From Escherichia coli (GTDB lineage: Bacteria; Pseudomonadota; Gammaproteobacteria; Enterobacterales; Enterobacteriaceae): 64,000 bases of DNA. Positions 1 to 3,000 of this stretch are shown here, piece after piece. Made by a program: the position numbers. Location: NCBI RefSeq assembly GCF_013315695.1, contig NZ_CP054353.1; one strand, 5' to 3'. The first letter of the stretch is position 1, and each line of letters begins with the position of its first letter.

Positions 1-3000
1 CGCCTTGCTCCGCGCTCAGAGAGACGTTCGCGTACTGCTGACCGTTGCTCGTTATTCAGCCTGGCAGTATGGTTACTGTCGTTTAGACGTTGTGGGCGGC
101 TCTCCTGAACTTTCTCCCGAAAAACCTGACGTTGTTCAGGTGATGCCGATTGTATACGCTGGCGGGCGTTATCACGTTGCTGTTGGTTCAGTGGGCGCTG
201 CTGTACTTTTTCCTTAAACACCTGGCGCTGTTCGGGAGTTGCAGACTGAATACGCTCACGCGCTGCCTCTCTTCGCTGCTGGTTCTGCGGGTTAGTCTGC
301 ATTTTCTCGCGAACCGCCTGGCGCTGTTCGGGAGTTGCAGACTGAATACGCTCACGCGCTGCCTCTCTTCGCTGCTGGATCTGCGGGTTAGTCTGCATTT
401 TCTCGCGGACTGCCTGGCGCTGCTCAGGAGAGGCCGACTGATAACGCTGACGAGCAGCGTCCTTTTGTTGCTGGGTCAGTGGTTGGCGACGGCTGAACTC
501 GCGGAAGTCGTCATAGCTCCCATAATGTTCCGCTTCATTAAATCGCTGTGCCGCAGCCTGACGTTGAGTATCTCGCGTAATGACTGGCGCAGTGTGTGTT
601 CGTTGCTGAAACTGACTTGCTGCTGCCTGACGCTGACTGTCGCGCGATAGAGCAGGTAACTGCGTGGCGCTCATGCCGCCGTTGACATCGGTTTGGTGAA
701 ACCGCTTTGCCATATCCTGATCATGATAGGGCACACCATCACGGTAGTTTGGATTGTGCCGCCATGCCATATTCTTATCAGTAAGATGCTCACCAGTGAT
801 ACGGTTGAAATTGTTGACGTCGATATTGATGTTGTCGCCGTTGTGTTGCCAGTCATTACCGTCACGATGACCGCCATCGTGGTGGTGATAATCATCATCG
901 TCATGATGATGATGGTCATGATCGTCATCGTCCCAGTCGATGCTGCTGAATAGTGCGTACGTGGTAGCAACGCCCATGCTATAGCCGAATCCGCGCACAA
1001 AGCTATCAACAAACGGTTCTCCGGCTGGTGGTGGCAGATAAACCGGCGGATACGCAGTATTGGCCCAGTTCCCGTAAACCACGGTTGGGTTGTAGTTGGG
1101 AATATAGACCACATCAGGATTGGTGGGCTCAATGGAAATGACGGTTGTTGCAGGCTCTGTAATGACAGGGTTGGCAGTTGAAACGGTATTGGATGGTATG
1201 ACGGGAGCCGTGACAGTCTGTGTTACCGGTACAGCTTTCTTCGTTGTGGTAATAACTTTCTGTTCGGTTGATGACTTTAGCGAGCCGGTTTGTTGCGCCA
1301 GTTGCCGCAATCGCTGTACCGAGTCCATCACGTCCTGCGACTGCGCCAGAAAAGCATCGCCCAGGTTTTGCACCCATTGCGGGTTTTCGCCCATCAATGC
1401 CATCAATTGTGGAAAGGCCACCAGTGATTTGACGCTGGCGTCCCACGGCTGGCCAGATACCGCCTGAATAGCAGCATCGCCTTGTTTAAGTGGATTATCG
1501 TGCGACCATTGCACTGCTTGAGCAACGTTTGCCGGATAGGTTGATGCCATTAACACTTGTGAAAGCAGAGAGTCGGGGTACAGCGCGACGGGCGCGACCC
1601 ATTGATCGATTTGTGCAGTGCTGAATGTAGATTTGACGACGGCAGGCGTTACGGGAGGCGCGGAAACCGTTGCAGGAAGCGTAACTGCGGAGATGTCAGG
1701 CGCAGTCTGTTGTGTCGATTGCGATTCCACAGGCGCTTCCACTGTGCGGCTTTTTATATATAGCCCGGCAGAGGCGGCACAAAGCCCGGCACTGCAAATT
1801 AGCGCCAGCACATGGGGTTTAAACGGCAAAGTCATTTTCATAATTCGGATCTCAAGGAAATCGCAATGGTCGGCGAACTGCCACCCGCAGGTGCTGTGAA
1901 TCCGAGTATAAAGAGGCCGTAGTTTAAATTTTGACTAATCTTGGGATTCGTTGAGAAAGGTGATTATCACCATGCGAATTAACGAAGTTTTTACGGAGGG
2001 AAACATTCTCTAGACTATCCTTAACGATTCAGCCACTTTTTTATGTTGCTTTTTTGTAAACAGATTAACACATCGTCAAAATCCTGCTATTCTGCCCGTT
2101 GCGGTACTGGGCATTTACCCTACAAACTGCTGTCTCACAGGAGCGTGAAGAGAATCGCCTGCCGCACTATGACAATGAGAGCGAGGAGAACCGTCGTGCT
2201 AGAAGAATACCGTAAGCACGTAGCTGAGCGTGCCGCTGAGGGGATTGCGCCCAAACCCCTGGATGCAAACCAAATGGCCGCACTTGTAGAGCTGCTGAAA
2301 AACCCGCCCGCGGGCGAAGAAGAATTCCTGTTAGATCTGTTAACCAACCGTGTTCCCCCTGGCGTCGATGAAGCCGCCTATGTCAAAGCAGGCTTCCTGG
2401 CTGCTGTCGCGAAAGGCGAAGCCAAATCCCCACTGCTGACTCCGGAAAAAGCCATCGAACTGCTGGGCACCATGCAGGGTGGTTACAACATTCATCCGCT
2501 GATCGACGCGCTGGATGATGCCAAACTGGCACCGATCGCTGCCAAAGCACTTTCTCACACACTGCTGATGTTCGATAACTTCTATGACGTAGAAGAGAAA
2601 GCGAAAGCAGGCAACGAATATGCGAAGCAGGTAATGCAGTCCTGGGCGGATGCCGAATGGTTCCTGAATCGCCCGGCGCTGGCTGAAAAACTGACCGTTA
2701 CCGTCTTCAAAGTCACTGGCGAAACCAACACCGATGACCTCTCTCCGGCACCAGATGCGTGGTCACGCCCGGATATCCCACTGCACGCGCTGGCGATGCT
2801 GAAAAACGCCCGTGAAGGTATTGAGCCAGACCAGCCAGGCGTTGTTGGTCCGATCAAACAGATTGAAGCTCTGCAACAGAAAGGTTTCCCGCTGGCGTAC
2901 GTCGGTGACGTTGTGGGTACGGGGTCTTCGCGTAAATCCGCCACGAACTCCGTACTGTGGTTTATGGGTGATGATATTCCACATGTGCCGAACAAACGCG

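What the first reader, a model, noticed from the sequence alone, without database searches (positions are those of the whole stretch)
865..935. His/Asp-rich low-complexity tract in yacH encoded by a trinucleotide-like repeat
About 70 bp of CAT/GAT/GTC-type triplets encode a run of Asp and His residues in the YacH-like protein. A D/H-rich stretch in a signal-peptide-bearing protein could bind divalent metal ions, and the triplet repeat is a likely site of in-frame length polymorphism.
Basis: partly seen in the sequence, partly recalled or inferred. Interest (0 to 1): 0.3.

Follow-up and report, generated by a model that had tools for sequence, protein, structure and literature searches.

The report
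Variable Asp/His loop in YacH
A 33-residue run of aspartate and histidine in the uncharacterised exported E. coli protein YacH is a real, disordered, over-grown hairpin loop whose length differs between strains through DNA slippage; it may bind metal ions, but this is an ordinary kind of feature and nobody has tested it.

Summary
Window 834-932 on the minus strand encodes YacH residues 304-336, DDDDHDHHHHDDDDYHHHDGGHRDGNDWQHNGD. Of its 33 codons, 26 are NAY codons. No shuffle of the protein comes close to this Asp+His density.

The predicted in-frame length polymorphism is real. In systematic samples of 5,416 complete E. coli genomes, about 18% differ in tract length from the window allele (-39, -6, -3, +6, +9, +24 bp). 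Every indel is a multiple of three and is explained by slippage or short direct repeats.

New here:
- In 85 of 109 diverse DUF3300 proteins the same site is a 4-residue beta-hairpin turn.
- The tract is an Enterobacterales-specific expansion of that turn. It is present in 46 of 50 orthologues scanned, at 16-33 aa and 63% Asp+His.
- AlphaFold2 predicts it to be disordered.
- Its amino acids look as constrained as the folded domain (pN/pS about 0.13, small counts).

Metal binding is plausible by analogy with the ZnuA His-rich loop, but it is untested. No paper found links YacH to metals. The fold has no solved relative.

Verdict: a new member of a known kind, a coding microsatellite-like His/Asp loop. 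Modest interest.

The parts
1..1841 (-). yacH coding sequence. It is partial: it starts at 1841 and runs off the left end of the window, with the last 4 codons missing.
   Evidence: Translation. Pfam DUF3300 at E = 5.9e-78. Annotated yacH in E. coli genomes between lpdA and acnB.
1767..1841 (-). Probable Sec signal peptide, residues 1-25, with A-S-A|G at residues 23-26.
   Evidence: It is the only segment with Kyte-Doolittle hydropathy above 1.6 (2.04 at residues 11-29). AlphaFold2 predicts a helix at residues 9-23. The cleavage motif is read from the sequence. No signal-peptide predictor was run.
843..1619 (-). DUF3300 (PF11737) match, residues 75-333. It comprises a helical N-terminal part, a Thr/Val/Pro-rich linker and a beta-rich part that ends in the hairpin carrying the tract.
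   Evidence: AlphaFold2 secondary structure and confidence.
933..947 (-). Conserved anchor SSIDW, residues 299-303. This is the first strand of the hairpin. W303 is present in 103 of 109 family members.
834..932 (-). The Asp/His-rich loop, residues 304-336: DDDDHDHHHHDDDDYHHHDGGHRDGNDWQHNGD.
   Evidence: AlphaFold2 confidence (pLDDT) is below 50 at residues 311-313 and 319-334. The loop is 34 residues here against 4 in 85 of 109 homologues.
876..932 (-). Pure NAY-codon core, residues 304-322 (D4-H-D-H4-D4-Y-H3-D). Nearly all the E. coli indels fall here.
903..914 (-). (CAT)4 run, His310-313. It is the most variable element, with 3 to 7 His in this run among E. coli alleles.
   Evidence: The (CAT)3 allele occurs on two different haplotype backgrounds.
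867..905 (-). Interval removed by the 39-bp in-frame deletion allele (residues 313-325). It is bounded by the short direct repeat TCAT(C).
   Evidence: Strains Survcare253 and MS10495 were sequenced through the deletion and share protein WP_001677967.1. EC98 and AR24.2b show the same 39-bp shorter span.
816..833 (-). Conserved NINIDV, residues 337-342. This is the second strand of the hairpin. The family motif is [IV][DN][IV][DN]V followed by NRYN.
   Evidence: strand at residues 338-341.

Best explanation
The tract is a disordered surface loop of the exported DUF3300 protein YacH. It arose in Enterobacterales by expansion of what is a 4-residue beta-hairpin turn in most of the family, with consensus W-G-[RGH]-[GRH]-D followed by [IV][DN][IV][DN]V.

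The loop is built almost entirely from NAY codons: GAY for Asp and CAY for His, with occasional AAY for Asn and TAY for Tyr. Its DNA therefore carries many short direct repeats. Replication slippage and short-homology deletion or duplication add and remove whole codons, which gives lineage-specific length alleles that keep the reading frame.

Steps shown here: the anatomy, the expansion, the predicted disorder, the polymorphism and its repeat-mediated nature, and the conservation of composition.

Step inferred: alternating Asp blocks and His blocks have been kept across two families of Enterobacterales, and amino-acid changes are as rare as in the folded domain. The loop is therefore probably under selection. 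Its most likely activity is reversible, low-affinity, multi-site binding of divalent transition metals (Zn, Ni, Cu) in the periplasm. That is how the disordered His-rich loop of ZnuA behaves. Loop length would set the number of binding sites.
For: Anatomy and expansion:
- Alignment of E. coli YacH with diverse family members shows DW, then 4 residues, then IDIDV-NRYN in most.
- Loop length is 4 in 85 of 109 sequences and at least 16 in only 7, counting E. coli itself. Six of those seven are Asp/His-rich.
- The three long-loop homologues that could be named are Enterobacterales: Rahnella, Scandinavium and Dryocola.
- The AlphaFold2 model (mean pLDDT 78.8, pTM 0.73) places strands at residues 299-301 and 338-341 around a loop with pLDDT below 50.

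Conservation:
- 46 of the 50 orthologues scanned, almost all Enterobacteriaceae, have the tract at 16-33 aa. Composition is D 36%, H 27%, G 16%, N 8%, Y 7%, in alternating D and H blocks.
- Burkholderiales, Bradyrhizobium and Acidobacteria homologues lack it.
- pN/pS is 0.13 in the tract (4 synonymous, 3 non-synonymous changes) against 0.13 in the folded DUF3300 part.
- The Asp runs use mixed GAC and GAT codons, so they are not fresh slippage products.

Polymorphism:
- Tract-length differences of -39, -6, -3, +6, +9 and +24 bp, all in frame.
- His run of 3 to 7 among 120 protein variants.
- Units involved are CAT, GAT, CATGAC, a 24-bp tandem duplication, and a 39-bp deletion between TCAT(C) repeats.

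Location: only the N-terminus is hydrophobic enough to span a membrane, and residues 280-300 reach only 0.78.

Analogy: the ZnuA His-rich loop is disordered in crystals and is required for two extra zinc sites (PMC8900738).
Against: - No experiment or paper found here links YacH to metals.
- NCBIfam, PDB sequence search and two fold searches give no functional anchor.
- In the wider family the turn is not a conserved His site. Gly and Arg are as common as His, so metal binding cannot be an ancestral function of the site.
- A 13-residue deletion allele occurs in several apparently healthy strains.
- Several S. Typhimurium lineages carry a frameshift in this tract (PMC3391293, PMC10048834). Neither the loop nor the protein is therefore essential.
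- The pN/pS estimate rests on only 7 changes.
- Periplasmic location is inferred from sequence only.
Confidence: 0.5

Rival explanations
1. The loop is a tolerated low-complexity expansion with no specific function. A surface hairpin turn that happened to contain Asp and His codons grew by slippage. It persists because it does no harm, and repeated expansion and contraction keep regenerating Asp and His runs.
For: - The site is a 4-residue turn in most of the family, so the fold does not need the loop.
- Length varies from 16 to 33 aa between species and changes within E. coli.
- A 13-residue deletion allele and frameshifted or inverted alleles exist (PMC3391293).
- The amino acids outside D and H are mainly N and Y, which are the other two NAY amino acids, as first-base mutation would give.
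Against: - Composition and the alternating D-block and H-block pattern persist across genera whose flanking sequence is only 57-70% identical.
- D and H together outnumber N and Y four to one.
- Asp runs carry synonymous GAC/GAT differences without amino-acid change, and pN/pS is about 0.13, equal to the folded domain.
- Every indel seen in E. coli keeps the frame.
Confidence: 0.25
2. The loop is a charge switch or a polycation-binding site rather than a metal site. At neutral pH it carries about 13 negative charges. Below about pH 6 the 10 His residues become protonated and largely cancel that charge. The loop could therefore sense periplasmic pH or attract cationic peptides.
For: - Composition of 13 Asp and 10 His in 33 residues.
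- yacH is reported as CpxR-regulated and repressed by protamine. A deletion mutant survived protamine better than wild type (PMC9600279). This would fit an anionic envelope protein that concentrates cationic peptides.
Against: - The phenotype is for the whole gene, not the loop, and comes from a single study.
- The C-terminal half of YacH is strongly basic, with 42 Lys+Arg against 27 Asp+Glu. The net charge of the protein therefore does not favour polycation capture.
- Nothing here tests pH dependence.
Confidence: 0.15
3. The repeat is a contingency locus that switches YacH on and off at high frequency by frameshifting (phase variation).
For: - Short repeats lie inside a gene for an envelope protein.
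- An 8-bp deletion in the homologous Salmonella tract creates a pseudogene (PMC3391293, PMC10048834).
- One E. coli record is annotated as frameshifted.
Against: - The repeat units are 3, 6 and 24 bp, so slippage keeps the frame.
- In the two samples every record but one, the same ETEC isolate drawn in both, has an in-frame allele.
- Alleles track lineages. The +6 allele was seen in an ST131 genome and in a block of records with the same 95.2% identity to the window. The -39 allele encodes one identical protein in two unrelated-source strains. This indicates slow change, not rapid switching.
- The 'frameshifted' E. coli record is in fact a roughly 160-bp inversion.
Confidence: 0.03

Closest known systems
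His-rich flexible loop of the periplasmic zinc-binding protein ZnuA (cluster A-I solute-binding proteins)
   Same: Both are disordered loops rich in His and acidic residues, about 20 aa long, in a periplasmic protein of enterobacteria. Both are dispensable for the fold. In ZnuA the loop adds two extra zinc sites (PMC8900738).
   Different: YacH has no solute-binding-protein domain; Pfam finds only DUF3300. It has no primary metal site to which a loop could hand metal over. No binding data exist for YacH. The function of the ZnuA loop is itself still debated (PMC8900738).
STTR5, the variable-number tandem repeat inside yohM/rcnA (nickel/cobalt efflux protein) used for Salmonella Typhimurium typing
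   Same: Both are in-frame, length-polymorphic short repeats inside an enterobacterial envelope protein. The paper discusses length limits imposed by function (PMC5183578). From my own knowledge, not tested here: the STTR5 unit is 6 bp and encodes His-Asp in the His-rich loop of RcnA.
   Different: STTR5 is a clean 6-bp array with many copies and changes fast enough for outbreak typing. The yacH tract is an imperfect mosaic of 3- to 24-bp units (Tandem Repeats Finder score 39) and its alleles are stable within lineages.
DUF3300 (PF11737) family at large
   Same: YacH is a full-length member (E = 5.9e-78). It shares the helical N-terminal domain, the Pro/Tyr-rich segment, the Gly-rich hydrophobic stretch, the DW hairpin, the NRYN motif and the W[QR]H[ND]PxHRxGVP motif.
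   Different: Most members have a 4-residue turn where YacH has 33-34 residues. The four distant members whose downstream gene was checked are followed by a DUF2950 gene. Enterobacterial yacH stands alone between lpdA and acnB.

Membership tests
DUF3300 (Pfam PF11737), host protein | Significant match to the family profile over its full length | tested here: met
   E = 5.9e-78, 261.9 bits against a cut-off of 25. Profile positions 2-227 of 227 match residues 75-333.
DUF3300 (Pfam PF11737), host protein | Conserved hairpin motif: W, short turn, [IV][DN][IV][DN]V-NRYN | tested here: met
   W303 and NINIDV-NNFNR are present. The turn is expanded from 4 to 34 residues.
Coding short tandem repeat (VNTR or microsatellite) with in-frame copy-number polymorphism | Head-to-tail repeats of a short unit | tested here: inconclusive
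   There are only short perfect runs: (CAT)4, (GAT)3 and (CAC)3. Tandem Repeats Finder gives a weak period-9 array (score 39, 74% matches). The tract is a mosaic of NAY codons, not a clean array.
Coding short tandem repeat (VNTR or microsatellite) with in-frame copy-number polymorphism | Length differs among strains by whole repeat units, with the frame preserved | tested here: met
   Differences of -39, -6, -3, +6, +9 and +24 bp. About 18% of sampled genomes are non-modal. The units are CAT, GAT, CATGAC and a 24-bp duplication.
Phase-variable contingency locus | Repeat changes shift the reading frame or promoter spacing to switch expression on and off | tested here: not met
   All repeat-mediated changes are multiples of 3. 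The only disrupted allele in the two samples is an inversion in one ETEC isolate that was drawn in both.
His-rich metal-binding loop of the ZnuA type | Host is a cluster A-I solute-binding protein with a primary metal site | tested here: not met
   Pfam finds only DUF3300. There is no PDB sequence relative and no fold relative.
His-rich metal-binding loop of the ZnuA type | Disordered loop rich in His and acidic residues in an exported protein | tested here: met
   10 His and 13 Asp in 33 residues. pLDDT is below 50. The N-terminus resembles a signal peptide.
His-rich metal-binding loop of the ZnuA type | Measured binding of Zn or other divalent metals that depends on the loop | not testable with these tools
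   This needs purified protein. No report was found.
Sec-exported (periplasmic) protein | N-terminal signal peptide with positive n-region, hydrophobic core and AXA cleavage site, and no further membrane span | tested here: inconclusive
   Lys2 and Lys8, then a hydrophobic stretch at residues 11-25 (2.04), then A-S-A|G. No other segment exceeds 1.2. No dedicated predictor or experiment was available.

The most novel reading that the evidence does not exclude
The loop is a tunable periplasmic sensor or buffer for metal or pH. Its length alleles, for example the two extra residues in the ST131-type allele or the 13-residue deletion, would adjust envelope-stress (Cpx) signalling and susceptibility to cationic antimicrobial peptides. 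Slippage at this site would then be a slow, heritable tuning knob for an otherwise unknown envelope function shared by Enterobacterales.
Probability: 0.08. Interest if true: 0.55.

Novelty: new member of a known kind. Interest (0 to 1): 0.3.

Why it matters
YacH belongs to the uncharacterised part of the E. coli genome. It is reported to be under Cpx and Rob control and to affect survival of a cationic peptide, protamine (PMC9600279, PMC7537768).

The Asp/His loop is the one feature of the protein that suggests a testable biochemical activity. Natural alleles with 3 to 7 His in the main run, a 24-bp duplication and a 13-residue deletion already provide a mutant series.

The comparison across the family also gives a clean example of how a tight hairpin turn can grow into a 30-residue charged loop through codon slippage.

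Practically, the tract and the 96-bp C-terminal repeats are indel-prone sites. They can confuse alignment, pseudogene calls and pan-genome clustering of yacH.

None of this overturns current understanding.

Tried and rejected
1. A second membrane span. The Gly-rich stretch just before the tract (residues 280-302) looked like a possible membrane helix, which would put the tract in the cytoplasm. Kyte-Doolittle hydropathy there peaks at 0.78, and AlphaFold2 models short strands rather than a helix. Rejected for E. coli, though not tested experimentally.

2. A solved relative to suggest function. None was found:
- Profile search of PDB sequences: nothing below E = 0.04.
- Foldseek: best E 0.18.
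- The tract peptide alone: no PDB hit.
- NCBIfam: no family.

3. A literature link to metals. Two of the paper searches asked for any two of several terms. They returned thousands of unrelated papers and gave nothing useful. The targeted list of yacH papers contains no metal study.

4. Phase variation. Rejected because the indels are in frame and track lineages.

5. The plus-strand ORF at 693-953 (86 aa, rich in Ile, Val and Met) is the mirror image of the NAY codons and is not a gene.

6. The 'frameshifted' annotation of ETEC L3_E36 first looked like a slippage frameshift. It is a roughly 160-bp inversion.

7. Exact allele frequencies were not computed, because the genome search returns summaries only. 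Frequencies come from two evenly spaced samples of the ranking, n = 40 and n = 60.
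Full report
**What is there**

The left end of the window is the E. coli gene yacH on the minus strand. It starts at 1841 and runs off the window four codons before its stop. It lies between lpdA and acnB, as in every E. coli genome examined. A 401-bp query around the finding matches 5,416 of 5,426 complete E. coli genomes, always under a gene annotated yacH or DUF3300 domain-containing protein. The protein matches Pfam DUF3300 over the full profile (E = 5.9e-78, residues 75-333) and matches no NCBIfam model.

This is window 932..834, and the pure core is 932..876.

**Is it more than chance?**

Yes.
- Twenty-six of the 33 codons are NAY (GAY Asp, CAY His, AAY Asn, TAY Tyr), against 17% for the whole protein.
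- The densest 20-residue window has 18 Asp+His. The maximum in 20,000 shuffles of the protein was 11.
- In all six frames of the 64-kb window, no other stop-free stretch reaches even 11.

At the DNA level the repeat is imperfect. Tandem Repeats Finder sees only a weak period-9 array (score 39). The perfect runs are short: (CAT)4, (GAT)3 and (CAC)3.

**Length polymorphism**

I took two samples at even steps down the ranking of all matching genomes and compared each record's span with the window allele.

| Difference from window allele | sample (n = 60) | sample (n = 40) |
|---|---|---|
| 0 | 49 | 32 |
| -3 bp | 2 | 0 |
| -6 bp | 0 | 1 |
| +6 bp | 5 | 3 |
| +9 bp | 0 | 1 |
| +24 bp | 1 | 0 |
| -39 bp | 2 | 2 |
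| Rearranged | 1 | 1 |

The rearranged record is the same ETEC isolate in both samples.

I fetched 16 of these loci and read the codons:
- The -3 allele has (CAT)3 instead of (CAT)4. It occurs on two different haplotype backgrounds, so it has arisen more than once.
- The +6 allele, seen in an ST131 genome and in KE54, duplicates CATGAC. The +9 allele adds one more CAT.
- The +24 allele is a tandem duplication of GATCATGACCATCATCATCATGAC.
- The -6 allele lacks one CAT and one GAT.
- The -39 allele removes residues 313-325 between two copies of TCAT(C).

Among 120 YacH protein variants from the large protein collection, the segment between IDW and WQH ranges from 24 to 31 residues, and the main His run from 3 to 7. 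Every change is a multiple of three.

Alleles track lineages. The five +6 records in the sample have the same 95.2% identity to the window. The -39 allele encodes an identical protein in strains from Germany and New Zealand. This is slow, repeat-mediated change, not rapid switching.

In Salmonella Typhimurium, an 8-bp deletion (GATCATCA, Asp284fs) in the homologous stretch makes yacH a pseudogene in 14028s, UK-1, SL1344 and D23580 relative to LT2 (PMC3391293, PMC10048834). The same kind of sequence is therefore indel-prone there too.

**What the tract is structurally**

A scan of one genome per species found yacH relatives in 63 loci. In 46 of the 50 enterobacterial-type orthologues scanned, the tract sits directly after a conserved IDW and before a conserved NI[ND]I[ND]V. 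The genera include Escherichia, Salmonella, Citrobacter, Klebsiella, Raoultella, Kluyvera, Buttiauxella, Atlantibacter, Cedecea, Franconibacter, Yokenella and Superficieibacter. The tract is 16-33 residues long, composed of D 36%, H 27%, G 16%, N 8% and Y 7%, and arranged as alternating Asp blocks and His blocks. E. coli has the longest tract in this set. The four orthologues without a regex match still show a D/H-rich stretch at the same place. Homologues from Burkholderiales, Bradyrhizobium and Acidobacteria have no such tract.

A search of 1.84 billion representative proteins shows a large family, with 9,597 representatives at E <= 0.001. I aligned 108 diverse members with E. coli YacH. In 85 of the 109 sequences, the segment between the conserved Trp (present in 103 of 109) and the conserved strand is exactly four residues, with consensus G-[RGH]-[GRH]-D. 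Only seven sequences, counting E. coli itself, have 16 or more residues, and six of those are Asp/His-rich. The three long-loop homologues that could be named are Rahnella (Yersiniaceae), Scandinavium and Dryocola.

An AlphaFold2 model of residues 1-420 (mean pLDDT 78.8, pTM 0.73) has short strands at 299-301 and 338-341 with confident flanks. The tract between them has pLDDT below 50.

The tract is therefore an order-specific, roughly eight-fold expansion of a beta-hairpin turn into a disordered, highly charged loop.

**Where it sits in the cell**

Only residues 9-30 are hydrophobic enough to cross a membrane (2.04). They carry Lys2 and Lys8 in front and A-S-A|G behind, which fits a Sec signal peptide. 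The Gly-rich stretch before the tract reaches only 0.78.

**Is the loop under selection?**

Three observations say its composition is not drifting freely:
- It is retained across genera whose flanking sequence is only 57-70% identical.
- Asp and His outnumber Asn and Tyr, the other two NAY amino acids, about four to one.
- Among six equal-length Escherichia alleles the tract shows 4 synonymous and 3 non-synonymous changes. This gives pN/pS 0.13, the same as the folded DUF3300 part. The Asp runs use mixed GAC and GAT codons.

The counts are small, and slippage itself can homogenise repeats. This is suggestive, not conclusive.

Against a strong requirement: a 13-residue deletion allele circulates, and whole-gene loss is tolerated in Salmonella Typhimurium lineages (PMC3391293).

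**How it most likely works**

The part shown here is a slippage-prone, length-variable, disordered Asp/His loop on an exported protein.

The inferred part is weak, multi-site binding of divalent transition metals, with loop length setting capacity. I give this about 0.5.

The best precedent is the ZnuA His-rich loop. It is disordered in crystals and is needed for two extra zinc sites beyond the primary one (PMC8900738).

A second parallel is STTR5, the variable repeat inside the nickel/cobalt efflux gene yohM/rcnA (PMC5183578). That its 6-bp unit encodes His-Asp is from my own knowledge.

Rivals:
- A tolerated loop with no function (0.25).
- A pH-dependent charge switch or polycation-binding site (0.15). 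This is prompted by the report that yacH is Cpx-regulated, repressed by protamine, and that its deletion improves survival in protamine (PMC9600279).
- Phase variation (0.03), which the in-frame, lineage-stable alleles argue against.

**Comparison with what is known**

- YacH is a member of DUF3300, tested and met.
- It is not a ZnuA-type protein. It has no solute-binding-protein domain and no sequence or fold relative in the PDB. That comparison describes how the loop might work, not family membership.
- As a tandem repeat it is only a loose member, because the array is imperfect. Its behaviour, in-frame unit gain and loss among strains, does fit.

I found no paper describing the tract or its polymorphism in E. 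coli. The Salmonella deletion is published only as a pseudogene call.

**Verdict**

This is a new member of a known kind: a His/Asp-rich, repeat-encoded, length-variable loop. The useful added detail is that it is an expanded hairpin turn specific to Enterobacterales. Interest 0.3.

Noticed in passing
window 105-452 (minus strand, YacH C-terminus): A 96-bp tandem repeat with 3.6 copies at 80-91% identity encodes 32-aa Gln/Arg-rich units (...RIQSA[ST]PEQRQAVREKMQTNPQ.QQRREAARE...). Copy number varies among E. coli. The 585- and 587-aa alleles lack one unit and a 648-aa variant has one extra. Other variants carry a 45-aa duplication after residue 416 (662 aa) or a 17-aa duplication (634 aa).
   Followed up: partly
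L006 (E. coli ETEC L3_E36, NZ_LR882997.1), equivalent to window ~716-875: This yacH is annotated 'frameshifted'. In fact it carries a roughly 160-bp inversion whose left breakpoint lies inside the Asp/His tract, just after ...CACCACGAT. It could be a real rearrangement or an assembly artefact.
   Followed up: partly
L060, L063, L066, L074 (Burkholderiales and other metagenome-assembled genomes): In distant relatives the DUF3300 gene is immediately followed, on the same strand, by a gene for a protein of about 300 aa with a hydrophobic, signal-peptide-like N-terminus. That protein belongs to DUF2950 (PF11453, E 1e-96 to 1e-111). Enterobacterial yacH has no such partner and sits alone between lpdA and acnB.
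   Followed up: partly
window 700-1100, and yacH as a whole: yacH is unusually polymorphic within E. coli. Only 5 of 5,416 genomes are at least 99% identical to the window over 401 bp, and most are 95-99% identical. About 0.4 synonymous changes per synonymous site segregate among only six alleles.
   Followed up: no
YacH residues ~262-303 and 337-400 (window ~640-1057): Strongly conserved family motifs flank the loop. Upstream are P.YPP.YY.PPP.GY and a Gly-rich hydrophobic stretch ending in LWG..DW. Downstream are [IV][DN][IV][DN]V-NRYN and W[QR]H[ND]P.HR.GVPYRD. None has a known function.
   Followed up: no
L057 (record titled Chryseobacterium sp. 18061) and P0274 (named Campylobacter jejuni): Both records carry a clearly enterobacterial-type YacH. 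L057 is 60% identical and has the Asp/His tract. P0274 clusters at 90% identity with Rahnella proteins. The records are probably contaminated or mislabelled.
   Followed up: no
window 693-953 (plus strand): An 86-aa ORF rich in Ile, Val and Met lies opposite the tract. It is the mirror image of the NAY codon run, not a gene.
   Followed up: yes
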